Source of the DNA: Shigella phage JK42
Strand: one strand, 5' to 3'
Length of the DNA: 64,000 nt
Sequence record: MK962756
Part shown: piece by piece, positions 7,430 through 61,796 of the stretch
How the letters are laid out: each line of letters begins with the position of its first letter
Position numbering within the stretch: position 1 is the stretch's first letter
The notes under the pieces: model-generated
The model's input: the letters and a program-made list of their open reading frames with translations, nothing else
Told to the model about the DNA's origin: nothing
Databases searched by the model: none
Position numbers and translations under genes: made by a program

Positions 7430-7849
7430 TTATGCAAAAGATGCTTGGCTATATCCTTTGATTTGGAATTCAGGAACTACCATGAACTGTCCGGCGAAAA
7501 CGATGTTATAAAGCTTAACACCATCTTCAACCCATTGGTCTGAAATAAAACCAGCGACTTGATTCGTTGTCCATGGAGACCCATCAGTTGCGGCAGCAAT
7601 AGTAAATTCATGATCTTTTACAACTAAAACTGACCTGCACAGTTTCCATTTGAATGCTTTTTCTTCTGGTTCAATGAACTGACTTGAGACGTAACCAATG
7701 TTACCATTAACATCTCGAACTTTAACTTCGTTACGTCCAAAAACCGGATCACTCACAGAAAGAACTTCAACCAACTTCCCGGCAACTTTAGAGCGAGAAG
7801 CAACAGATACATATACGTAATCACCTGTAGAGAGATTTACAATATTCAT
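7430..7849 (-). CDS. hypothetical protein, tandem paralog A
   Basis: 139 aa; shares ASRSKxAGKLVEV, FKWxLC and GFISDQWVEDGxKLYNIVF with the adjacent ORF. Confidence 0.55.
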   Translation of the reverse strand: MNIVNLSTGDYVYVSVASRSKVAGKLVEVLSVSDPVFGRNEVKVRDVNGNIGYVSSQFIEPEEKAFKWKLCRSVLVVKDHEFTIAAATDGSPWTTNQVAGFISDQWVEDGVKLYNIVFAGQFMVVPEFQIKGYSQASFA

Positions 7850-7858
7850 AATAATTCC

Positions 7859-8320
7859 TTAAGCTTTACGAGGAGACACATAGCGAGTGATTTCAGATTC
7901 TTTAACAACTCGGAAGTCACCTAAGAATACGATATTGTATAACTTTTCACCATCTTCAACCCATTGGTCGCTAATGAAGCCACACATAGTATCAGTTTTG
8001 CTTGAACCGTATTCATCGATGAAGTCAAATTCTTTATCAGTCTGGAATTCAACACCTTTACACAAGGCCCATTTGAACTGTGTAGTAGGCTCAACGATAT
8101 CGCTTGAAGCAAAGTGGGCACTTACACGAGTTTCCAAGAATTTAGGACTTACATAGGCGAACTGAGTTTCAGTTTTTCCAGAACTAGGAATGATTCGAAC
8201 TTTAACTTCTTTAATACGGCCCATGCCATTAGTACGAAGTCCTACTACTTCAACCAGCTTTCCTGCAGCTTTAGAACGAGACGCTGTCGATACACGCTTA
8301 ATTTCACCAATATTAATCAT
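7859..8320 (-). CDS. hypothetical protein, tandem paralog B
   Basis: 153 aa; paralog of 7430..7849 (same conserved blocks). Confidence 0.55.
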   Translation of the reverse strand: MINIGEIKRVSTASRSKAAGKLVEVVGLRTNGMGRIKEVKVRIIPSSGKTETQFAYVSPKFLETRVSAHFASSDIVEPTTQFKWALCKGVEFQTDKEFDFIDEYGSSKTDTMCGFISDQWVEDGEKLYNIVFLGDFRVVKESEITRYVSPRKA

Positions 8321-8351
8321 ATTTTTTTCTCTCTTTGTTTAAGTTGAATTC

Positions 8352-8380
8352 ATTATACTCCATCCATCCTTGGTTGTAAA
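8352..8380 (-). promoter_or_regulatory. early promoter TTTACA-N17-TATAAT, copy 1 of a repeated 31-bp element
   Basis: Plus strand cattatactccatccatccttggttgtaaac; minus strand gives -35 TTTACA, 17-nt spacer, -10 TATAAT. Confidence 0.5.
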
Positions 8381-8386
8381 CCGGTT

Positions 8387-9064
8387 TTATCGCTGTTTTA
8401 CACTTAACGGGTCAGGATTCTCAGGGACATCTTCAAGGCCAAGCGCATAACGCTGAGCATATTTTAACATCAAAATATCTTTAGCACAATCATGAATACT
8501 ATCATGGGCAACGAATCCTTTTAGCGTACCCATCGGTAATGGACACATACTTAATCCTCGTGTCAACGAGTAAGCTTCGATTGCCGTACGAATATCACGT
8601 TGAGCCCAGAATTTAACCGGTTCTAATTTATCAGTATCAATATCTGGTTCAAGAACACCTTCATCACGATAGAGGTCACGAATCAAATCGACCAAGATCG
8701 GGAAGTCAAAGCTCATACCACGGCACCACATCTGTGATTTCCATTGGTCAACTTTATTAGCTCGACAATAATCTAAAAAGATTTTAATGCCTTCAAGCGT
8801 AGTGACATCGTCTTCAGACGGAGCCAGGTTTTTACGCGCTTCTGCTGACTGTTCTTTCCACCATTTCATAGTGGATTTAGCGAAAACTCGCTTCCCTTTC
8901 TGAGAAGCTAAATTAAATTTAATTCGCTTACCTCGTTGAACAAGTTCTTCAAATGATTCAACAACTTCAGGGTCGGAATTATATGCAATAACCGCAAGGT
9001 CAATAACAGCCGCTTTTGATGTATTGCCGAATGTTTCAAAATCTATAATAACATCAGTGCTCAT
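8387..9064 (-). CDS. dexA: exonuclease A (DEDDh 3'-5' exonuclease)
   Basis: 225 aa; N-terminal ...IIDFETFGN... exonuclease motif; size and position after dda as in T4. Confidence 0.8.
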   Translation of the reverse strand: MSTDVIIDFETFGNTSKAAVIDLAVIAYNSDPEVVESFEELVQRGKRIKFNLASQKGKRVFAKSTMKWWKEQSAEARKNLAPSEDDVTTLEGIKIFLDYCRANKVDQWKSQMWCRGMSFDFPILVDLIRDLYRDEGVLEPDIDTDKLEPVKFWAQRDIRTAIEAYSLTRGLSMCPLPMGTLKGFVAHDSIHDCAKDILMLKYAQRYALGLEDVPENPDPLSVKQR

Positions 9065-9073
9065 AATTTTCTC

Positions 9074-10387
9074 TCAAATAAAATGGACGTCAAAACGACC
9101 ACGAGTTGTGCCGACATACAATAACTGTTTAGCTAATTCTGAATCAGCATAATGGATACACGGTGTATAAACAAAGGCCGTGTCAACAGACATACCCTGG
9201 GCCTTATGGAAGGTTGATACTGGTAGTGCCTTCACCTTAGTGAACATACGTTTAGCATCCCAGAATTCGCTCCATGGAGCTTTACCGCCTTTATTCCAGA
9301 ATTTGTATGTTTCTGCGGTCTTAGCCAAAAACAAATTGAATTTATAAAGCTCTTCTTCAGAAGAAATAACCTTTATATCTTCGCGGATGTATTCTTCATC
9401 ATCCCCATATGTTTCTACTGTAAGATTCCAGTATCGTATCATATATTCGCCTGAAACACCACGTGCTTTAACGAATGTAGACGTTTCTACAGCATCTCGA
9501 ATACGAACGAATTGCCCATTATTGAAAAGCATTTCAGTCATATTTTTGCCATCTAGCTTGTACGTCTTAGTAAACGGCTCTTGTAGAACAATGACTTCGT
9601 CTTTAATAAATGGTTTTTCTGTTTCAAGAAGTTTTCGGCGAATAATTGAATTTAACTTGTCCACCGACTTATTTGTGAATGCCATCATTCGATTTTCGAA
9701 AAGGTCTTCAGGAGTTTTAACGACGTTAAAATAGTTCATCATATACGATTTAAGGTCTGTATATCCGTGAACACCGTGTCCATCAACTACTTTATCGTAA
9801 ATCCATTTGCCATTACGAATATCAGTCGCAACATCAATAATTGGTGCATTGCTACGTTTAACTTCTGTAAGGTTGCATTGCACGAAGTCTTTGTGAGTGA
9901 AGAAAGGACTTAGATATGCAGTTGATTCGCCTGGGTCTACCGGTCGAATCTGGCATCGGTCGCCGATTCCAATTACTGTGCACCATTTAGGGATACTAGC
10001 TAACATTATTTTAAACAGAGAACGGTCGCACATTGACGCTTCATCAAATAACAGTACACGACACAAGGCTAAGTCGGGAACCTTTTTCTGTTCAAACAAT
10101 ACGTTTTCTTCGTATGTAGTTGGGTTGATTTTAAGAATGCTATGAATAGTCGATGCTTCTTGACCTGCAAGTTTGCTTAGAACCTTTTTAGCAGCATGTG
10201 TAGGGGCTGCTAAAATAATACCTGATTCTCCGGCAGAAATAAGAGCTTCAACGATGAATCTAGTAAGGGTTGTTTTACCTGTACCAGCAGGCCCATTAAT
10301 AGTTACATGATGTTTCTTTTCTTTAATAGCGTTCATAACAACGTTGAAGGCGTTTTTCTGGCCTTCAGTCAAATCATCAAATGTCAT
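9074..10387 (-). CDS. dda: Dda DNA helicase (SF1B)
   Basis: 437 aa; MTFDDLTEGQKNAFNVVMNAIKEKKHHVTINGPAGTGKTT... matches remembered T4 Dda closely, including Walker A. Confidence 0.92.
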   Translation of the reverse strand: MTFDDLTEGQKNAFNVVMNAIKEKKHHVTINGPAGTGKTTLTRFIVEALISAGESGIILAAPTHAAKKVLSKLAGQEASTIHSILKINPTTYEENVLFEQKKVPDLALCRVLLFDEASMCDRSLFKIMLASIPKWCTVIGIGDRCQIRPVDPGESTAYLSPFFTHKDFVQCNLTEVKRSNAPIIDVATDIRNGKWIYDKVVDGHGVHGYTDLKSYMMNYFNVVKTPEDLFENRMMAFTNKSVDKLNSIIRRKLLETEKPFIKDEVIVLQEPFTKTYKLDGKNMTEMLFNNGQFVRIRDAVETSTFVKARGVSGEYMIRYWNLTVETYGDDEEYIREDIKVISSEEELYKFNLFLAKTAETYKFWNKGGKAPWSEFWDAKRMFTKVKALPVSTFHKAQGMSVDTAFVYTPCIHYADSELAKQLLYVGTTRGRFDVHFI

Positions 10388-11444: not shown

Positions 11445-11597
11445 AATATTTTCCTCTGTCTTACGGACGTTAAGGTCATTTAGCTGATAAGCTTATAATA
11501 TCATGCCCTCAGGTAGTGTACACTCTTTTTTCGTAAAATGCTTTAATTTTTTATGTGTTATAATGGTTCTGAGTTCCATCCGGTTATTCCAATTCAG

Positions 11598-49665: not shown

Positions 49666-50071
49666 TATTTTTCCTTTCATCGATTAAATATGCAATGCCA
49701 AATACAATACATGTAATAAAACCTGTGATACAGATAGAAACCAACAATACTGTACCAAAGAACCAAATCAAGTTATCTTTGGTAGTTTGTTTGATATCCA
49801 TCTCACGAATTTCTATAGCTATCGTATCACCTTTATTCAGAAGAGTATAAAACGACGGTGATACACGCCTGTCAAAAACTCGTCCTTGCTCATCTTTATA
49901 GACTGCAATAAATTCTAATTTAGAATATTTTCCTGTAGATTGACCTGAGATTAATTCCACTACCTCCACAGGAATTACTTTAGTTTCCATGTAAGTATTC
50001 TGGCTGTTCCAAATGAATGGAATAATAGCAAAAACTAAAGCTGTGATAAAACAACGAAGGCTATATCTCAT
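49658..50071 (-). CDS. membrane protein (two TM segments)
   Basis: 137 aa; N- and C-terminal hydrophobic helices. Confidence 0.45.
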   Translation of the reverse strand: MRYSLRCFITALVFAIIPFIWNSQNTYMETKVIPVEVVELISGQSTGKYSKLEFIAVYKDEQGRVFDRRVSPSFYTLLNKGDTIAIEIREMDIKQTTKDNLIWFFGTVLLVSICITGFITCIVFGIAYLIDERKNNV

Positions 50072-50376
50072 TATAATGTTCTCTCAAATTTGTGGAAGCA
50101 TTTACGGCATTTCAATTTCAAGTTATCACTGGTCCAGTTAACCAGTTGGACTTGGATAGTTCCACATTCCGGGCATGGATGTTTTGCTGCCGATTTGGCA
50201 GCATTTTCACGTCGTTCAACCATTTTCATTATTTCGTTCCATGCTGGAGGAACAAACTCTTCTTCACCGTGGATTTTATCTCGCTGAACAAATTCAATCT
50301 TTGAACTATCATCAATAAACTTAACCAAGCCATGATTAGTGCTCATATCAATATCCTCTAAAAGACGTAGTTTCAT
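50071..50376 (-). CDS. zinc-ribbon protein
   Basis: 101 aa; C-terminal CPECG...CRKC. Confidence 0.45.
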   Translation of the reverse strand: MKLRLLEDIDMSTNHGLVKFIDDSSKIEFVQRDKIHGEEEFVPPAWNEIMKMVERRENAAKSAAKHPCPECGTIQVQLVNWTSDNLKLKCRKCFHKFERTL

Positions 50377-51326
50377 TATAACACCTCAATGGCATTTCGT
50401 AAACCATCCGCTTTCGCATTCAGAGCTTTTAACGATTTAGTTTGTTCTGCAATCTGGGCTTCGACTTCTTTCAGACGAGATTTGAGATATTCGCGTTCTT
50501 CTCTTAAGTTATCAACTTTTTCTGCTTTAGGCTCTTTAATAGGCTTAGGCTTATACTCGTTAGGGTTCTTCAACTTAATTTGAATGCGAGAACTGTATAA
50601 CATTGAACCATTATCTTCGGTTTCATCATACATTTCTACCACGTCCATGATTCTTAACATCATGCGAAGTTTATAAGACAGCGAACGAATGGTTTTATTG
50701 TGCTTCTTAATTTCTTCAGCTTTCATGGTGCCGAGATTACGTGAGTAATAATAAGGAACCTGAATATCAATTGATAATGATGCGGTACCATTACCGGTTG
50801 GTTTGAACACTGCAGTAACCCAATCTTTAGCATGAACTGTATTTGTACGATCATCGCCGCCTGTGAATAATTTACGAGAATGTTTAAAAAGCATATTCAC
50901 TTGGTTATTGAATTCACAAGCAAATTTATCAGCAAATTTAGTTTCAGGAATGGTAGTTAACCAATCAGCCAAATGAGTCTTTTTAACATCATTAACAATA
51001 GTGAATTCAACCAAATCGGTTTTAGATGTCACAGATTTAATAAAGCTCGGCTTCATAAAGTTTTTAATGTTATCGCGAGCTACAGTAGAAGATAATAAAC
51101 GAGAACGTTTGAACCATTGAAGCAGTGTCCCTAATGAATGAGAATATGCATTTTGAGTATCTTTACAGATATGATTTTCTTGGCCTATGTATGTACCAAA
51201 ATCTCGAAGAATACCACTTACTACATCTCGGTGTGGAACATCAAATCCTAGTACACCAGAAGCACGTTGGGCATGAACGTTAGCGATAAGGCCTGCAAAG
51301 TATTCAATGTAATGTGAACGTGTCAT
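50376..51326 (-). CDS. hypothetical protein with C-terminal coiled coil
   Basis: 316 aa; C-terminus ...REEREYLKSRLKEVEAQIAEQTKSLKALNAKADGLRNAIEVL; driven by repeated promoter copy 2. Confidence 0.5.
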   Translation of the reverse strand: MTRSHYIEYFAGLIANVHAQRASGVLGFDVPHRDVVSGILRDFGTYIGQENHICKDTQNAYSHSLGTLLQWFKRSRLLSSTVARDNIKNFMKPSFIKSVTSKTDLVEFTIVNDVKKTHLADWLTTIPETKFADKFACEFNNQVNMLFKHSRKLFTGGDDRTNTVHAKDWVTAVFKPTGNGTASLSIDIQVPYYYSRNLGTMKAEEIKKHNKTIRSLSYKLRMMLRIMDVVEMYDETEDNGSMLYSSRIQIKLKNPNEYKPKPIKEPKAEKVDNLREEREYLKSRLKEVEAQIAEQTKSLKALNAKADGLRNAIEVL

Positions 51327-51355
51327 AATATTTTCCTCTCGTTAAGATAAATTCA

Positions 51356-51384
51356 TTATACTCCAACCATCCTTGGTTGTAAAC
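51356..51384 (-). promoter_or_regulatory. early promoter TTTACA-N17-TATAAT, copy 2 of the repeated element
   Basis: Plus strand attatactccaaccatccttggttgtaaa; spacer contains the inverted repeat CAACCA-TCCT-TGGTTG. Confidence 0.5.
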
Positions 51385-51388
51385 TGAT

Positions 51389-52348
51389 TTATGATTTTAA
51401 CGCATTCATTGCGTTAAAAAGTTTAGAATACTGCAACTGGAGATTCGTTACAACACTTTGAGCATCACGAAGCTTAGCTTGTGCTTTGTCAAGTTCAACA
51501 GACAGTTGGTCCATAGTGGCCTTGATTTGATTGTAATGGTAATCTTCGACCGGAAGAAGGTCATTAGAAACATTTAGTTTTACTGCAGACAGTTTGCACA
51601 CATTTGGCAAACCTTTAAACATTGATTTACCCGAAGTAGAATAAGCACTTAGGACTTCGGCCTGTTCAATTGGGGTCCCAGTAAGCGATGCTTCAAACAA
51701 TGCATTTTCCTTTTTAAGATTTTGATAGTATTCAGAGTCTTTGTGCCACCACGGCGCAGGAACCTTTTTACCAATAGATACACGAGCCTGGATAGCGATA
51801 TTGCCCTTATTCTTGATAGGGTCGATAATATTAAGCTCACGAGAATAAATTGCTTTAATCTGGTGAATATTATCACCTAAAACTTCCAACGCTTGGTGGA
51901 ATACACGAGCAACGTTATCATTCTTAGGTTTATACGTGAGAGTGAACTCGTTCTCACTGATAACCATGATTTCCAACTTATCGTAAGTATATTTCAAATG
52001 TTTCATGTTAATTGCTTGAGGACGAATACGAGAAGCAATGGCCATCAGATTGTTAAGGTTATTCCGGAACTGCTTAGCGAAATATTGTCCTTCACCGCCA
52101 ATACAAAAATTACGAAGTTTCTGTTTGGCCAATAAACGGCTGAACTCGCCATTTTTAATGAACTCTTTAACGGGTGTGTTAGTAACGCATTCAAATTGAG
52201 TAAACTTACGAGAAGTAATCCCATAATATGAACAGATTTCCTCAATCTCTTCAGGAGTCTTTACAGGCATACGGATAGGATTAGGTCCTGGAGTATATGC
52301 GTTCGAGGTAAATTCTTTGATAAGTTCTCTACGTGTAATAAAAGCCAT
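51389..52348 (-). CDS. hypothetical protein with C-terminal coiled coil
   Basis: 319 aa; C-terminus ...LSVELDKAQAKLRDAQSVVTNLQLQYSKLFNAMNALKS; driven by repeated promoter copy 3. Confidence 0.5.
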   Translation of the reverse strand: MAFITRRELIKEFTSNAYTPGPNPIRMPVKTPEEIEEICSYYGITSRKFTQFECVTNTPVKEFIKNGEFSRLLAKQKLRNFCIGGEGQYFAKQFRNNLNNLMAIASRIRPQAINMKHLKYTYDKLEIMVISENEFTLTYKPKNDNVARVFHQALEVLGDNIHQIKAIYSRELNIIDPIKNKGNIAIQARVSIGKKVPAPWWHKDSEYYQNLKKENALFEASLTGTPIEQAEVLSAYSTSGKSMFKGLPNVCKLSAVKLNVSNDLLPVEDYHYNQIKATMDQLSVELDKAQAKLRDAQSVVTNLQLQYSKLFNAMNALKS

Positions 52349-52374
52349 TTTATATTCCTCATGTTGAAAAATTT

Positions 52375-52403
52375 ATTATACTCCAACCATCCTTGGTTGT
52401 ACA
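52375..52403 (-). promoter_or_regulatory. early promoter TGTACA-N17-TATAAT, copy 3 of the repeated element
   Basis: Plus strand attatactccaaccatccttggttgtaca; identical spacer palindrome. Confidence 0.45.
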
Positions 52404-53399
52404 TCATTCCTTAAGAAGTTTTACTACCTGAATAAGATTAGCTCGTTCTGTTTTATTTTTACCATTTAAGCCTGCTAATCGTGAGATTTCATCGTCAGTC
52501 TGTTGAATAGTTACATTAAGTTCGTTAATCAAAGCTTCAAAGTATTTGATTTGCTCAGCATGTTTTGATTCAAATTTCTGAACCGGAATAACGTCTTGGT
52601 TCAGTTCATCAATAAGGTCTTTAAGAGCATCTTCTTGGTTGATATCATATTCAACTTCTTTTATTTCTTCAACGAGCTCGTCTTTATATCTAACGTCTTT
52701 TAGTCCTGGAGCTGGTCCTGAAATCTCTTCTTTAAGAGTACAAACATACCCAATACGGTATCCAACGCCGTCTCGCTTGATATCAACTTCGTCGATAAAT
52801 CCACAATGTTTAAGTCCAGAGCCGATTATGTCAAAATATCCTTGACGTCGTCCTTCAAACGTTACACGAACTACTAAGACGGTTTTGCCACCGACCTTTT
52901 GAAGCTCACATTTATAAAAGTTTGTTGAACCTGAATAACATGGATGAGTTTTAAAGTTCATCTGACGATCTAGGCCCATTTGTAAACGTGCTGTTACGGC
53001 CATAAAACGTGTTTGGTTCTCGTTAAGATGAGCAACAATCCATTTCAAAGGCATTTTACCCTGTTCACGGCCGAACAAATCAGTACGTCCTAGATTACGC
53101 AGGATGTTGTTAGAGTTAATCATCGACAGAACGTTAAGTTTATTCAGCGCGCTGAAGATTCCATCAGCCATTGATTTTCCATAACCTTTACACGCTTTAA
53201 TAAGTGCTCGCGGCAGATTAGTATAGATTTCAGACGGCATATGAAAATCAAATTTACTAGTCAGTAATTGATGAACTTGGATAGCAATTTGCTCATAATT
53301 AAGTGCTCTGCGATCGTTATGGTCTTTAAACCATACTTTAATCTGTGAAGCACATAAACCGTTAATTTCATGTTTTACCGCATCAGATGTAATGCTCAT
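52404..53399 (-). CDS. hypothetical protein with C-terminal coiled coil
   Basis: 331 aa; C-terminal heptad-like region. Confidence 0.5.
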   Translation of the reverse strand: MSITSDAVKHEINGLCASQIKVWFKDHNDRRALNYEQIAIQVHQLLTSKFDFHMPSEIYTNLPRALIKACKGYGKSMADGIFSALNKLNVLSMINSNNILRNLGRTDLFGREQGKMPLKWIVAHLNENQTRFMAVTARLQMGLDRQMNFKTHPCYSGSTNFYKCELQKVGGKTVLVVRVTFEGRRQGYFDIIGSGLKHCGFIDEVDIKRDGVGYRIGYVCTLKEEISGPAPGLKDVRYKDELVEEIKEVEYDINQEDALKDLIDELNQDVIPVQKFESKHAEQIKYFEALINELNVTIQQTDDEISRLAGLNGKNKTERANLIQVVKLLKE

Positions 53400-53461
53400 A
53401 ACTATTTCCTCAGATTGAATTGGAACTCAAAACCATTATAACCCGTCCTTGGGTAAAGCGT

Positions 53462-53989
53462 TTATGCGTGAACCGTCTTTAAACGTTCTTCAAATTTCCG
53501 AAGAGTACTAATACGTTCTGCTTTCTGTTTTGTATAGTTTGCAATACGTTCTGAAGTGAGAGCGTATCGTTCGTTTACTGTTTCTTTCATGAAGTCAGGG
53601 ATTTCACGAGAAGCTTTAATTTCATCAAACTTATCGAGTACTGCCTGGTCTTCAGCAATTAAATTTTCGTACATCTCGATATCTTTCTTGATGAAGTCGA
53701 TATCTTCCTGGGTTACTTTGGATAAACGAGATGCTTTATCCTTTTTGTACTGCTCGTTAGTTTCACGAGACCAGAATAATGTACGTTTTTTGTTAGTGTT
53801 TTTGTAGACTTCCACAATTCCAACTGAATCGATGATAACAATCCAATTCCAGCGAGATTTGAAAATCTGACCTCCGTCCACGGTAATCTCGTTACCATAA
53901 GCAATGTCATTAAAGAACTTACTTTGTGCTTCAGATTTAAATTTACCGTCGTTATAATTTACCAGGTTGAAAATATCTTTAGCGTTCAT
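53462..53989 (-). CDS. hypothetical protein
   Basis: 175-aa ORF; early promoter upstream at ~54011-54045. Confidence 0.5.
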   Translation of the reverse strand: MNAKDIFNLVNYNDGKFKSEAQSKFFNDIAYGNEITVDGGQIFKSRWNWIVIIDSVGIVEVYKNTNKKRTLFWSRETNEQYKKDKASRLSKVTQEDIDFIKKDIEMYENLIAEDQAVLDKFDEIKASREIPDFMKETVNERYALTSERIANYTKQKAERISTLRKFEERLKTVHA

Positions 53990-54047
53990 GTTTTACCTCC
54001 AGTAGTTGATAGGTCTATAATAACATAACCATAGACCTTGTAAACAA

Positions 54048-54335
54048 CTAAAAGAAACTTTTTTCGGTATTTTTTCCACTGAACCAAACAGACTTCGGGA
54101 TTTTTTGTAATTTTTCAGATTTAAGTTTCTCTTCCTGTTCTTTCTTATATACACCCTTGTCGTACTGGAGCATCTCTATGGCATTCTTTTGCAAACGATC
54201 TAAGGTAATTAAGGCTTTAGTTTTTCCTTTCAAGGAAGAATCCTGGCGAACCTCCTCGCTATATTGCATTGTAGAACTAACCATACGATGAGCATAGAGT
54301 TCGACTGCGGCTTTAATTTTTTGCATAAAATCCAT
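54048..54335 (-). CDS. hypothetical small protein
   Basis: 95-aa ORF. Confidence 0.4.
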   Translation of the reverse strand: MDFMQKIKAAVELYAHRMVSSTMQYSEEVRQDSSLKGKTKALITLDRLQKNAIEMLQYDKGVYKKEQEEKLKSEKLQKIPKSVWFSGKNTEKSFF

Positions 54336-60947: not shown

Positions 60948-61257
60948 CTAGACGGTCCACCATAGAATTGCATGCTGCCTTATCTTTAGGTTCCGCCACC
61001 GAGCATTCTAATATTTGCCATTTTTTATAGTATCTTTTAATTAAGGTAGACGCCTTGAACCTACTAGACGCCCCGTCTTTTTCTCCGTCTTTATACGCAT
61101 ATAACAATTTTTGTGAAAAATCTACTTTACACTCTTGACTTTTACCACAGTAATCAGACGCCGTTCTGTTTGTATACTCCGTTACATCAGTATATGTAGT
61201 ATTAGCAAGAGCGTTAAATGAAACCAAGCCAACTATTAAAGCCAACATTTTGGTCAT
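60910..61257 (-). CDS. secreted Cys-containing protein
   Basis: 115 aa; signal peptide MTKMLALIVGLVSFNALA. Confidence 0.45.
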   Translation of the reverse strand: MTKMLALIVGLVSFNALANTTYTDVTEYTNRTASDYCGKSQECKVDFSQKLLYAYKDGEKDGASSRFKASTLIKRYYKKWQILECSVAEPKDKAACNSMVDRLVDSYNRGLAASD

Positions 61258-61796
61258 TCTTTTATTTCCAGTAGTTTATTTGATTTAAGGTAATTAGCCT
61301 TTTCTAGGACTTCAGAAGCATATTTACTTCCGGCACTTGTCTTCCATCCCGCATTATATGAGGATATAGCTTTTCTTATATCCCCGTTATGTATATTTAA
61401 CCAATAAGAAAATTCGATATAAGCCCATCTGGCTGAATTAGACCGCTTAGATAGCATTTTCTTAATTTGGGCATCAGTCATATTATAACCAAGCTGGTTA
61501 ATTCTTGCCCTCATTGTCGGTAGATAATTTTGGAACATTCCATACGCATGGTGACCTTTCTTATCTTTAAGATTAATACCGGCAGATGATTCCTGCCATA
61601 GTATTGCGGCCATTATGTATCCAAGTCCTTTCTTATGCATATTTTCATGCGTTTTAAATTTTCCATCCTTAGAAAACTGTTCCCCAAACTGATAAGCATA
61701 ATTCAAGTTATCGAGTTGGACATTACTAAAAGTATGCTCGGAGCTATGTGCTGATAATGAAAGAGCAAATAGACCAGCGAGTAGTGCTTTTCTCAT
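61254..61796 (-). CDS. secreted lytic-transglycosylase-like protein
   Basis: 180 aa; signal peptide; ...IMAAILWQESS...AYGMFQ resembles the SLT-domain catalytic ES and GLMQ-type motifs. Confidence 0.5.
   Translation of the reverse strand: MRKALLAGLFALSLSAHSSEHTFSNVQLDNLNYAYQFGEQFSKDGKFKTHENMHKKGLGYIMAAILWQESSAGINLKDKKGHHAYGMFQNYLPTMRARINQLGYNMTDAQIKKMLSKRSNSARWAYIEFSYWLNIHNGDIRKAISSYNAGWKTSAGSKYASEVLEKANYLKSNKLLEIKE

What the first reader, a model, noticed from the sequence alone, without database searches (positions are those of the whole stretch)
51356..52403. Near-identical 31-bp early promoter with an internal palindrome, present three times
The element (c/t)attatactcca(a/t)ccatccttggttgta(a/c)a occurs at 8351-8381, 51355-51385 and 52373-52403. 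On the minus strand each reads -35 TTTACA (TGTACA in copy 3), a 17-nt spacer and -10 TATAAT. The spacer contains the inverted repeat CAACCA-TCCT-TGGTTG (one mismatch in copy 1). This level of identity is unusual among the otherwise varied early promoters here and suggests co-regulation, possibly through an operator, of the tandem paralog pair (7430-8320) and two ~320-aa coiled-coil genes. It may also act as a recombination substrate.
Basis: seen in the sequence. Interest (0 to 1): 0.55.

Follow-up and report, generated by a model that had tools for sequence, protein, structure and literature searches.

The report
Mobile phage promoter hiding RNA hairpin
A T4-like coliphage carries three near-identical copies of an early promoter; the small palindrome inside it is conserved as a base-paired hairpin across four phage genera, looks like a binding site for the host RNA regulator CsrA, and has served as a crossover point that deleted a gene.

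Summary
The 30-nt element occurs exactly three times, against none in shuffled sequence. On the minus strand it reads TTTACA/TGTACA, a 17-nt spacer, then TATAAT. The window is a Mosigvirus (RB69 group). The copies sit upstream of a tandem MotB pair, nrdC.3 and nrdC.5. The RB69 orthologues were already predicted as early promoters in 2006.

Three things are new:
- **Conserved palindrome.** Seventeen distinct variants from four genera and six intergenic sites keep a 5-6 bp stem. Four of six pairs show changes on both sides. The asymmetric core CAAGGAnG does not vary.
- **Hairpin independent of the promoter.** It persists where the promoter is degraded or wrongly spaced. This points to a sense-strand RNA hairpin present only in read-through transcripts, not a DNA operator.
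- **CsrA-like loop.** The loop matches the host CsrA/RsmE site CANGGANG. This is my preferred reading, at about 0.35, and is untested. A RegB site (GGAGUAUAAU) next to the stem is the main rival.

Copy 1 is a chimera of two promoter copies that flank motB.1 in relatives. The crossover fell inside the hairpin core, deleted motB.1 and created the copy-1 mismatch. A fourth, degenerate copy lies at 53435-53458.

The parts
8352..8380 (-). Copy 1, upstream of the first MotB-like gene. -35 TTTACA 8380-8375, 17-nt spacer, -10 TATAAT 8357-8352. It is a chimera: the left part comes from P(motB.1) and the right part from P(motB).
   Evidence: 11/12 sigma-70 match. Chimera shown.
8361..8376 (-). Spacer hairpin of copy 1, CAACCA-AGGA-TGGATG. 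It has an A.A mismatch at the 4th pair and is predicted to be nearly unfolded (-1.2 kcal/mol).
51355..51383 (-). Copy 2, upstream of the nrdC.3-like gene. -35 TTTACA 51383-51378, -10 TATAAT 51360-51355.
   Evidence: The orthologue is annotated as a promoter in MH243438 and predicted as Pe:51019 in RB69.
51364..51379 (-). Spacer hairpin of copy 2, CAACCA-AGGA-TGGTTG (-5.3 kcal/mol). The core CAAGGATG matches CANGGANG. GGAG follows directly.
51397..51417 (-). Second stem-loop, TTAACGCA-ATGAA-TGCGTTAA, in the 3' end of the nrdC.5-like gene just upstream of copy 2. It sits where a PeSL stem-loop would, but has no U tract.
52375..52403 (-). Copy 3, upstream of the nrdC.5-like gene. -35 TGTACA 52403-52398 abuts the TGA stop of the nrdC.6-like gene, and -10 TATAAT is at 52380-52375. 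Tequatro-, Dhaka- and Gapriverviruses have no element at this junction.
   Evidence: Predicted as Pe:52042 in RB69.
52384..52399 (-). Spacer hairpin of copy 3, CAACCA-AGGA-TGGTTG.
53435..53458 (-). Degenerate fourth copy upstream of the nrdC.6-like gene. CTTTAC 53458-53453, hairpin ACCC-AAGGAC-GGGT 53454-53441, TATAAT 53440-53435. Only 12 nt separate the hexamers, so it is unlikely to act as a -35/-10 promoter.
   Evidence: 25.4 bits. Orthologues are T4 TTATACCA-AGGA-TGGTATAA and L029 TATCA-AGGA-TGATA.
7859..8320 (-). MotB-like gene 1 (153 aa), driven by copy 1.
   Evidence: Pfam PF17613, E 1e-39. PHROG 1671. RB69 annotation. tblastn.
7430..7849 (-). MotB-like gene 2 (139 aa), the tandem paralogue.
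8387..9064 (-). dexA (exonuclease A). It lies directly upstream of copy 1. In relatives, motB.1 sits between dexA and motB.
50376..51326 (-). nrdC.3-like gene (316 aa, PHROG 1435), driven by copy 2.
   Evidence: (56% identity to T4 NrdC.3).
51389..52348 (-). nrdC.5-like gene (319 aa, DUF7235), driven by copy 3.
52404..53399 (-). nrdC.6-like gene (331 aa, PHROG 2257), preceded by the degenerate fourth copy.

Best explanation
The element is a small mobile regulatory cassette of T-even-type phages that carries information at two levels.

**DNA level: an early promoter.** It is a sigma-70 early promoter (T4-type -35 TTTACA, 17 bp, TATAAT) that gives motB, nrdC.3 and nrdC.5 their own early transcription start. 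This is inferred from sequence, and agrees with earlier predictions for RB69.

**RNA level: a hairpin in read-through transcripts.** The spacer of the promoter also encodes a 5-6 bp hairpin on the sense strand, with the invariant loop and closing sequence C-A-AGGA-Y-G.
- The hairpin lies upstream of the cassette's own start site. It is therefore absent from locally started mRNAs.
- It is present in transcripts that read through from upstream early promoters. No terminators intervene.
- Selection on the hairpin is shown by covariation, and it persists where the promoter has decayed.

**Most likely binder: host CsrA (about 0.35, inferred).** The hairpin would be a high-affinity site for the host RNA-binding protein CsrA. 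It would work together with the GGA of the downstream Shine-Dalgarno sequence, 32-39 nt away, as in the glgC leader. Long read-through mRNAs and locally started mRNAs of the same gene would then be translated or stabilised differently.

The adjacent GGAGUAUAAU may in addition be a RegB/S1 cleavage site.

**Recombination.** Because the copies are near-identical direct repeats, they also act as recombination substrates. This is shown directly: a crossover inside the hairpin core between P(motB.1) and P(motB) deleted motB.1 in this phage and produced chimeric copy 1.
For: **Promoter**
- Exact T4-type hexamers with 17-nt spacing, and top-scoring sites locally.
- The RB69 orthologues were predicted as early promoters.
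- GenBank carries a promoter annotation for the orthologue of copy 2.

**Hairpin under selection**
- I collected 17 distinct variants by the motif AAGGA[TC]G followed by a downstream TAYAAW. Pairing played no part in the selection. They come from Mosig-, Tequatro-, Dhaka- and Gapriverviruses and from metagenomes.
- 92.2% of cells are paired, against 62.5% in shuffles (0 of 500 shuffles reach it).
- 4 of 6 pairs have changes on both sides.
- The covariation score is 0.696 against 0.157. Slid controls pair at 20-44%.
- Pair 6-17 takes A-U, U-A, G-C, C-G and G.U.
- Folding energy is uniform at -4.9 to -6.5 kcal/mol, apart from the chimeric copy 1 (-1.2) and one metagenomic variant of the short class (-2.5).
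- The hairpin appears in the minimum-energy and centroid folds of 6 of 7 read-through contexts of 111-121 nt.

**Independence from the promoter**
- T4 and T6 upstream of nrdC.3 have TTTAAA-18-TATAAA, and RB6 has CATAAA, yet the stem is intact and compensated (AGCCA/TGGCT).
- Upstream of T4 nrdC.4 the hairpin is shifted 4 nt relative to the -35.
- The fourth-copy class has 10-12 nt between the hexamers, yet the stem covaries across three genera.

**Read-through**
- No minus-strand terminator-like site lies between the upstream promoters and the elements.

**CsrA fit**
- The invariant columns C A A G G A n G equal 5'-CANGGANG-3' and ruACArGGAugu, with GGA in a short stem-loop or an ANGGAN hexaloop.
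- The only variable loop position (U/C) is an N of the consensus.
- T4 upstream of nrdC.4 reads ACAAGGAUGU.
- E. coli CsrB itself contains ACACC-AGGAU-GGUGU and CCUCC-AGGAU-GGAG.
- A second GGA in the Shine-Dalgarno sequence lies 32-39 nt downstream in most copies. This is within the 10-63 nt bridging range of CsrA.

**Recombination**
- On the minus strand, window 9200-8314 matches L005 505-1389, and window 8380-7301 matches L005 1881-2995. The two alignments overlap by 67 nt in the element.
- RB69, L005 and mar005p1 keep both parental promoters, with arms CAACCA/TGGTTG and CATCCA/TGGATG.
- AV115, S143_2 and L027 carry the same deletion with a different crossover point.
Against: - No transcript, start-site or binding data exist for any of these sites, here or in the literature I could search.
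- The promoter lacks the TGn extended -10 that most T4 early promoters have.
- The 17 variants represent only about six site classes in related phages, so the shuffle statistics overstate independence. The alignment is anchored on the loop.
- Quasi-palindrome correction by template switching could produce paired changes without selection.
- ANGGAN-loop hairpins are not clearly enriched across the window: 12 on the minus strand against 6.6 +/- 2.4 expected. Only 4-5 sites per genome make a CsrA-sponge role implausible.
- The motB copies lack a GGA in their Shine-Dalgarno sequence.
- The stems of 5-6 bp are longer than most SELEX ligands, which have 4 bp or fewer.
- I picked the CsrA match after also considering RegB and Shine-Dalgarno mimicry, so it is post hoc.
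- The conserved GGAG next to the stem is better explained by RegB.
Confidence: 0.5

Rival explanations
1. RegB processing module. The hairpin together with the adjacent GGAGUAUAAU forms a cleavage site for the phage endoribonuclease RegB, assisted by ribosomal protein S1, in read-through early transcripts. Cutting GG^AG one nucleotide past the stem leaves the upstream mRNA with a protective 3' hairpin. It exposes the downstream cistron to decay that depends on polynucleotide kinase and RNase E/G.
For: - GGAG immediately 3' of the stem is conserved in all long-class copies across four genera.
- It survives as (A/G/C)TGGAG(T/A)ATAAA in the motB leaders of T4, RB51 and VR25, where the hairpin has been lost. 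There it fits the consensus GG*AGRAYARAA at 10 of 11 positions. The window copies fit at 8-9 of 11 (consensus).
- RegB cuts in intergenic regions of early genes. It prefers an unpaired GGA with a constrained fourth nucleotide.
Against: - It does not explain the invariant C-G closing pair and the A of CAAGGAnG.
- It does not explain why the loop tolerates GGAC, which is not GGAG/U, in 4 of 17 variants.
- The nrdC.4-upstream class and the short class keep the hairpin but have no GGAG.
- The first position after GGAG is U, where the consensus has a purine.
Confidence: 0.2
2. DNA operator. The palindrome in the spacer is bound by a dimeric phage or host protein that represses or activates these promoters together. 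MotB autoregulation, or the unknown factor that shuts off early promoters, would be candidates.
For: - The site lies between -35 and -10, an ideal position for a repressor.
- One copy drives motB, which encodes a DNA-binding protein.
- The mechanism of early-promoter shut-off in T4 is unknown.
Against: - The centre AGGA is asymmetric and invariant, while the arms vary and covary. A dimer operator shows the reverse pattern.
- Within T4 the two sites have different arms.
- The palindrome shifts 4 nt relative to the hexamers and persists at sites with no usable promoter.
- G.T pairs are tolerated at internal stem positions (VR20, L023), which would be mismatched half-sites in duplex DNA.
Confidence: 0.1
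3. No function for the palindrome. It is inherited by duplication of the cassette and kept symmetrical by mutational mechanisms, namely quasi-palindrome correction by template switching and gene conversion between copies. Only the promoter hexamers are under selection.
For: - The copies clearly exchange sequence by recombination.
- Template-switch correction of quasi-palindromes is an established mutational process, first described in T4 (my own knowledge, not checked here).
- The sample of independent lineages is small.
Against: - The 8-nt core is invariant across four genera and six non-orthologous positions, whereas the surrounding intergenic sequence and even the promoter hexamers diverge.
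- Stem energy is held in a narrow range.
- The hairpin is kept where the promoter has decayed.
Confidence: 0.1
4. Shine-Dalgarno mimic. The loop AAGGA pairs with the 3' end of 16S rRNA. It would act as a standby or decoy site for 30S subunits, modulating translation of the downstream cistron, or termination and re-initiation after the upstream one.
For: AAGGA is the core of the Shine-Dalgarno sequence and is displayed single-stranded, 41-49 nt upstream of the start codon.
Against: - It does not explain the invariant closing C-G pair and the 5' A.
- The distance to the start codon is too long for direct initiation.
- No data support it.
Confidence: 0.1

Closest known systems
T4-type early promoters (Pe): sigma-70 promoters with GTTTAC at -35, as catalogued for T4 and predicted for RB69 by Nolan et al. 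2006 (PMC1524935)
   Same: - The same hexamers, spacing, orientation and position in front of early-region genes.
- The RB69 orthologues of all copies are in the published prediction list.
   Different: - No TGn extended -10.
- The spacer is conserved and self-complementary.
- The copies are near-identical to each other and unlike the majority class in the same genome.
PeSL cassettes (promoter-early stem-loop), Arbiol et al. 2010 (PMC2839356) and Comeau et al. 2014 (PMC4122927)
   Same: - Repeated sigma-70 early-promoter cassettes in the hyperplastic regions of T4-like genomes.
- They carry their own leader and Shine-Dalgarno sequence.
- They mediate deletions and insertions by recombination between copies. 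Here that is the motB.1 deletion, copy 3 being present only in Mosigviruses, and degraded or mis-spaced copies in the nrdC region.
   Different: - In PeSLs the stem-loop lies upstream of the -35, is G/C-rich and acts as a terminator. Here the conserved hairpin lies inside the spacer, has no U tract, and has an invariant AAGGAY loop.
- Only 3-5 copies per genome, against more than 60.
CsrA/RsmE binding hairpins (CsrB/CsrC repeats, the glgC leader hairpin, the SELEX consensus RUACARGGAUGU)
   Same: - GGA presented in the loop of a short hairpin.
- The core CANGGANG.
- A variable N after GGA.
- A second GGA at the Shine-Dalgarno sequence within bridging distance.
- CsrB hairpins with almost the same stems.
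   Different: - Encoded by a virulent phage and embedded in a promoter.
- Present only in read-through mRNA isoforms.
- Binding is untested.
- The stems are somewhat longer than typical SELEX ligands.
RegB/S1 cleavage sites of T4 early mRNAs (GG*AGRAYARAA)
   Same: An intergenic GGAG followed by an A/U-rich stretch in early transcripts. The remnant copies in the motB leaders match at 10 of 11 positions.
   Different: The window copies match at only 8-9 of 11 positions. The site coincides with the -10 hexamer and is preceded by a conserved hairpin, which is not part of the RegB consensus.

Membership tests
T4-type sigma-70 early promoter | -35 hexamer of the GTTTAC/TTGACA type, a 16-18 bp spacer, and a -10 TAtAAT with A-11 and T-7 | tested here: met
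   TTTACA (TGTACA in copy 3), 17 bp, TATAAT. Scores are 11/12, 10/12 and 11/12.
T4-type sigma-70 early promoter | TGn extended -10 and an A/T-rich UP-like region, typical of most T4 early promoters | tested here: not met
   GAG precedes the TATAAT, so there is no TG. The upstream regions are moderately A-rich only. This feature is not obligatory.
T4-type sigma-70 early promoter | Correct orientation immediately 5' of an early-region gene, with its own Shine-Dalgarno sequence | tested here: met
   The hairpin lies 44-49 nt upstream of the ATG of motB, nrdC.3 and nrdC.5, so the -10 hexamer is about 30 nt from the start codon.
T4-type sigma-70 early promoter | Primary transcript 5' ends immediately after infection, without phage protein synthesis | not testable with these tools
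   No start-site data for T4 or RB69-group phages were found in the held literature.
PeSL regulatory cassette | Repeated early-promoter cassette in intergenic spaces of the hyperplastic regions | tested here: met
   3-5 copies per genome in the motB and nrdC regions of Mosigviruses.
PeSL regulatory cassette | Stable stem-loop just upstream of the -35 that acts as a terminator or attenuator | tested here: not met
   Only copy 2 has an upstream stem-loop (51397-51417), and it lacks a U tract. Copies 1 and 3 have none. The conserved hairpin is inside the spacer instead.
PeSL regulatory cassette | Recombination between copies causes indels of the intervening ORFs | tested here: met
   Chimeric copy 1 marks the 558-bp motB.1 deletion. 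There are at least two different crossover points among isolates.
CsrA/RsmE binding site | GGA in the loop of a short hairpin | tested here: met
   Predicted in the minimum-energy and centroid folds of 6 of 7 contexts. The stem is supported by covariation.
CsrA/RsmE binding site | Sequence consensus CANGGANG / RUACARGGAUGU | tested here: met
   The invariant columns are C A A G G A n G in 17 of 17 variants. The full ACA..UGU is present only in the T4 nrdC.4-upstream class.
CsrA/RsmE binding site | Second GGA site 10-63 nt away, usually overlapping the Shine-Dalgarno sequence | tested here: inconclusive
   A Shine-Dalgarno GGA lies 32-39 nt downstream in the window's nrdC copies and in most of their relatives, but is absent in the motB copies and upstream of T4 nrdC.3. 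Shine-Dalgarno sequences often contain GGA anyway.
CsrA/RsmE binding site | Specific binding by CsrA and CsrA-dependent regulation | not testable with these tools
   This needs a gel shift, CLIP or reporter assays. No paper linking CsrA to T4 mRNAs was found.
RegB/S1 cleavage site | Single-stranded GG*AGRAYARAA in an early intergenic region | tested here: inconclusive
   GGAGUAUAAU(G/A) matches at 8-9 of 11 positions, and the remnants in the motB leaders of T4 and RB51 at 10 of 11. Cleavage cannot be tested here.
Palindromic DNA operator | Conserved half-site sequences, symmetric about a centre of unimportant sequence, at a fixed position in the promoter | tested here: not met
   The arms covary, the centre is invariant and asymmetric, the position shifts by 4 nt, and different arms occur within one genome.

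The most novel reading that the evidence does not exclude
A virulent phage has written a host-regulator binding site into the spacer of its own promoters. The same 30 bp acts as a sigma-70 promoter in DNA and as a CsrA (or other GGA-loop-binding protein) operator in RNA. Each downstream gene is then made from two mRNA isoforms. A locally started isoform lacks the operator. A read-through isoform carries it and is tuned to the host's Csr (carbon and growth-state) status. The whole dual-coded unit moves and recombines as a cassette.
Probability: 0.3. Interest if true: 0.75.

Novelty: new variant of a known kind. Interest (0 to 1): 0.58.

Why it matters
- **A possible host link for T4 early genes.** T4 early gene control is a classic system, yet the shut-off of early expression and the roles of the hyperplastic-region genes remain poorly understood. 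A conserved, covarying RNA hairpin hidden inside a promoter is a concrete, testable element. It links early phage mRNAs to a host post-transcriptional regulator (CsrA) or to RegB.
- **Dual coding.** It illustrates one sequence carrying a DNA signal and an RNA signal at once. It also shows a simple way to give two mRNA isoforms of one gene different fates.
- **Recombination in action.** The chimeric copy 1 is a clean natural example of promoter-cassette recombination deleting a gene. It extends the PeSL concept to the RB69 group, and it shows that a crossover can damage the embedded RNA element.

Tried and rejected
- **IMG/VR searches.** A DNA pattern search and a search with the 319-aa protein gave only 4 and 2 loci, too few for comparison. 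I used the GenBank phage collection and one metagenome scan instead.
- **Tandem duplication of gene plus promoter.** Rejected, because the three ~320-aa proteins are not detectable paralogues.
- **Rfam.** No family matched in 50000-54200. The best hit was isrA at 16.7 bits against a threshold of 51, which is noise.
- **Genome-wide excess of ANGGAN-loop hairpins.** Only weak: 12 against 6.6 +/- 2.4 on the minus strand and 7 against 3.4 +/- 1.8 on the plus strand. The hit at 61670 lies inside an ORF.
- **Covariance model R1.** It found only the four members already known in the window.
- **Published start-site maps for T4.** None was found in the held library. The Miller 2003 review (PMC150520) is not held. 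The T4 GenBank records in the collection carry no promoter features.
- **A CsrA-T4 link in the literature.** I found only that CsrB is stabilised during T4 infection and that csrA knock-down gives broad, probably pleiotropic, phage resistance. Neither bears directly on these sites.
- **Intrinsic terminator.** Rejected, because no U tract follows the hairpin.
- **Other roles considered.** RNase III site, homing-endonuclease target and mini-ORF (AUG GUU GGA GUA UAA). Rejected on length, lack of conservation of the reading frame, or lack of any supporting feature.
Full report
**1. Observation**

The degenerate 30-mer occurs exactly three times, at 8351-8380, 51354-51383 and 52374-52403 on the + strand. 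None of 100 dinucleotide-preserving shuffles gave a match.

Read on the minus strand, each copy is TTTACA (TGTACA in copy 3), a 17-nt spacer, then TATAAT. The spacer contains CAACCA-AGGA-TGGTTG, with one mismatch in copy 1.

These are the best sigma-70 matches in their regions. They differ from the majority early-promoter type of the window, TTTACt tctcc...tgtTATTATagacctatcaac.

**2. Context**

The window is 99.6% identical to Mosigvirus mar005P1-like phages, which belong to the RB69 group of T4-like phages. All genes concerned are on the minus strand.

| Copy | Position | Downstream gene(s) | Evidence |
|---|---|---|---|
| 1 | between dexA (8387-9064) and the MotB pair | two tandem MotB-family genes (7859-8320, 7430-7849) | Pfam PF17613; RB69 annotation; 43% identical to each other |
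| 2 | upstream of 50376-51326 | nrdC.3-like gene | 56% identity to T4 NrdC.3 |
| 3 | upstream of 51389-52348 | nrdC.5-like gene | DUF7235 |

The ~320-aa proteins are not detectable paralogues of one another.

A fourth, degenerate copy precedes the nrdC.6-like gene: gCTTTACccaaggacgggtTATAAT at 53458-53435. Only 12 nt separate its hexamers. A covariance model built from the family finds these four sites and nothing else in the 64 kb.

**3. Promoter status**

By sequence these are T4-type early promoters.
- The RB69 orthologues are already in the published list of predicted early promoters, as Pe:51019, Pe:52042, Pe:8947 and Pe:8387 (Nolan et al. 2006, Additional file 3). I mapped them.
- GenBank MH243438 annotates the orthologue of copy 2 as a promoter.
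- They lack the TGn motif that most T4 early promoters carry.
- I found no experimental start-site data, so activity is inferred.

**4. The palindrome is conserved and covaries**

BLAST of the 39-nt element finds it in 242 phage records. Mosigviruses have 2-4 places each. Dhakaviruses (JS98, IME08, Bp7) and Gapriverviruses (VR20) have one place each, upstream of their nrdC.4-like gene. T4 and other Tequatroviruses carry more diverged versions.

I collected every site in the fetched loci that has AAGGA[TC]G followed by TAYAAW. Pairing was not a criterion. Together with one metagenome scan, this gave 17 distinct variants:

| Source | Hairpin |
|---|---|
| Mosigvirus copies 2 and 3 | CAACCA-AGGA-TGGTTG |
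| IME08, L005 | CATCCA-AGGA-TGGATG |
| JS98, Bp7, RB69 P(motB) | CATCC-AAGGAC-GGATG |
| VR20 | CTTCCA-AGGA-TGGAGG |
| L023 | CAGCCA-AGGA-TGGTTG |
| T4 upstream of nrdC.3 | AGCCA-AGGA-TGGCT |
| T4 upstream of nrdC.4 | CCACA-AGGA-TGTGG |
| T4 upstream of nrdC.7 | TTATACCA-AGGA-TGGTATAA |
| L029, short class | TATCA-AGGA-TGATA |
| Mosigvirus copy 4 | ACCC-AAGGAC-GGGT |

On the loop-anchored alignment A1, pair counting gave the following:
- 92.2% of cells form a pair, against 62.5 +/- 3.6% in shuffles (0 of 500 reach it).
- 4 of 6 pairs have changes on both sides.
- The covariation score is 0.696 against 0.157.
- Partners slid by 1-3 columns pair at 20-44%.

The invariant columns are C A A G G A n G.

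Caveats: the variants come from about six site classes in related phages, so they are not independent. The structure was also derived from these sequences.

**5. DNA operator or RNA hairpin?**

Five observations argue against a dimer-binding operator and for a nucleic-acid hairpin on the sense strand.
- The centre is asymmetric and invariant while the arms covary. An operator shows the reverse.
- Within the single T4 genome the arms differ (AGCCA/TGGCT, CCACA/TGTGG, TTATACCA/TGGTATAA).
- The hairpin is shifted 4 nt relative to the -35 upstream of T4 nrdC.4.
- Internal G.T pairs (VR20, L023) are wobble pairs only on the sense strand.
- The hairpin outlives the promoter. Tequatroviruses have TTTAAA-18-TATAAA upstream of nrdC.3, and RB6 has CATAAA, so the critical T at -7 is missing. 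Yet the stem is intact and compensated. The fourth-copy class has 10-12 nt between its hexamers in three genera, yet its stem covaries.

Supporting results:
- RNA folding of 111-121 nt read-through contexts places the hairpin in both the minimum-energy and centroid structures in 6 of 7 cases. The exception is the chimeric copy 1.
- Stem energies lie between -4.9 and -6.5 kcal/mol for the natural variants, except one metagenomic variant of the short class at -2.5.
- The hairpin is upstream of its own promoter's start site, so it can only exist in transcripts that start further upstream.
- No minus-strand terminator-like site lies between the upstream early promoters and the elements. Those promoters are at 54044 and 55519 for the nrdC cluster, and at 11522 for copy 1.

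**6. What might read the hairpin?**

*CsrA (preferred).* The invariant CAAGGAnG in a hairpin loop matches the binding site of the host protein CsrA and its homologue RsmE.
- The SELEX consensus is RUACARGGAUGU, with GGA in a hairpin loop. RsmE binds an ANGGAN hexaloop.
- The Rsm motif is 5'-CANGGANG-3'.
- CLIP-seq in E. coli finds AuGGAug in a short stem-loop.
- The single variable loop position (U or C) is an N of that consensus.
- T4 upstream of nrdC.4 reads ACAAGGAUGU.
- E. coli CsrB itself contains ACACC-AGGAU-GGUGU, CCUCC-AGGAU-GGAG and GUCAAGGAUGAG.
- In most copies the downstream Shine-Dalgarno sequence supplies a second GGA 32-39 nt away. This is within the 10-63 nt range over which a CsrA dimer bridges two sites, as in the glgC leader.

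I therefore favour CsrA binding to read-through mRNAs, at a probability of about 0.35. Locally started mRNAs of the same genes would escape.

*RegB (main rival, or an additional function).* The GGAG directly after the stem, followed by UAUAAU, resembles the RegB/S1 consensus GG*AGRAYARAA at 8-9 of 11 positions. The remnant in the motB leaders of T4 and RB51 matches at 10 of 11. RegB does not explain the invariant C-G closing pair, the GGAC variants, or the hairpins that lack GGAG.

*Weaker alternatives.* Shine-Dalgarno mimicry, and purely mutational maintenance of the palindrome.

None of these can be tested with the tools available.

**7. Recombination**

RB69, the IMG/VR contig L005 and mar005p1 OZ035759 have this order: dexA, P(motB.1) with arms CAACCA/TGGTTG, motB.1, a small ORF, P(motB) with arms CATCCA/TGGATG, then motB.

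In the window, dexA is followed directly by one element whose left arm is CAACCA and whose right arm is TGGATG.
- blastn aligns window(-) 9200-8314 to L005 505-1389 at 97.6% identity.
- It aligns window(-) 8380-7301 to L005 1881-2995 at 88% identity.
- The two alignments overlap by 67 nt in the element.

Copy 1 is therefore the junction of a 558-bp deletion. The crossover fell inside the shared CCAAGGATGG.

AV115, S143_2 and metagenome contig L027 have the same deletion but a crossover to the right of the -10, which leaves the palindrome intact. So recombination here is recurrent, or was followed by conversion.

Further signs of cassette mobility:
- Copy 3, with its leader, is present only in Mosigviruses. 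Tequatro-, Dhaka- and Gapriverviruses have no promoter at that junction.
- HY03 has the nrdC.4 promoter fused to nrdC.3.
- ACG-C40 has lost nrdC.3, nrdC.4 and most of nrdC.5.
- In T4, RB51, JS98 and VR25, P(motB) has been replaced by a different promoter, leaving only the GGAG(T/A)ATAAA tail.

This behaviour matches the PeSL cassettes of Arbiol et al. 2010 and Comeau et al. 2014. Those authors also noted degraded, mis-spaced copies at about 43-51 kb in the phage PST, which they compared with T4.

**8. Comparison with known systems, and novelty**

As a promoter, the element is a known kind and was already predicted in RB69. As a recombining cassette, it works like a PeSL. It fails the PeSL defining feature of a terminator stem-loop upstream of the -35. 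Its conserved hairpin is inside the spacer and has a sequence-specific loop.

I found no description of this spacer hairpin, nor of any CsrA-T4 mRNA link. I rate it a new variant of a known kind.

**9. Verdict**

- Promoter: likely.
- Recombination substrate: shown.
- DNA operator: unlikely.

The most interesting result is a covarying hairpin with a CsrA-like loop, dual-coded within an early promoter and present only in read-through mRNA isoforms. Experiments are needed to establish promoter activity, the binding partner and the effect on expression.

Noticed in passing
window 58216-58185, 54044-54010 and 18262-18230 (minus strand); also L002, L031, L032, L033: A second hairpin class in early promoters: an inverted repeat that brackets the -10 hexamer. 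Window examples are AGGACTATgtTATAGTAGTCCT, AGGTCTATggttatgtTATTATAGACCT and GGACTAtagTATAGTAGTCC. The orthologous P(motB) of other genera covary: T4 GGGACC..TATAAT..GGTCCC, VR25 GGGGCC..GGTCCC, and RB51 and JS98 GAGAGCC..TATAAT..GGCTCT(C). This suggests that embedded hairpins are a more general feature of T-even early promoters.
   Followed up: partly
window, minus strand: promoters at 54044, 19574, 12263 and 7424 (-35 start coordinates): The majority class of early promoters shares a conserved block downstream of the -10 (TATTATagacctATCAAC), which covers the predicted start site. I did not examine its meaning.
   Followed up: no
window 61645-61680 (minus strand): An 8-bp hairpin, AGTTTTCT-AAGGAT-GGAAAATT, with the same AAGGAU loop lies inside a 180-aa ORF (61254-61796). 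It is probably chance, and the covariance model does not pick it up.
   Followed up: partly
L020 (ACG-C40) 2130-2541; L017 (HY03) 1320-2401: The nrdC.3-nrdC.5 block is highly plastic among Tequatroviruses. ACG-C40 keeps only the start of nrdC.5 and the last ~45 codons of nrdC.3. HY03 lacks nrdC.4, and its nrdC.3 carries the nrdC.4 promoter and N-terminus (MTRKH).
   Followed up: partly
L003 (T4 NC_000866) 8997-9110: The T4 reference annotation ends nrdC.6 at a TGA about 70 nt before nrdC.5. Another frame continues to the conserved C-terminus (..KLIKIVDLLKS*) that is annotated in RB6 and T6 and present in the window's 331-aa protein. This suggests a frameshift or a sequence difference in the T4 record.
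   Followed up: no
window 50375-50403 (minus strand): A good sigma-70 match (TTTACG-17-TATAAT, with TG) lies in the 3' end of the nrdC.3-like gene. Its -10 overlaps the ATG of the next gene (TATAATG). A transcript from it would start inside that gene, so any function is unclear.
   Followed up: no
L003 6915-7975 and window 51389-51417: The C-termini of the proteins just upstream of these promoters end in similar repeats: T4 NrdC.5 ..NALNALN* and window ..NAMNALKS*. These are encoded by short direct or inverted DNA repeats (AATGCACTAAATGCACT, TTAACGCAATGAATGCGTTAA) that abut the promoter. They may be part of the mobile cassette.
   Followed up: no
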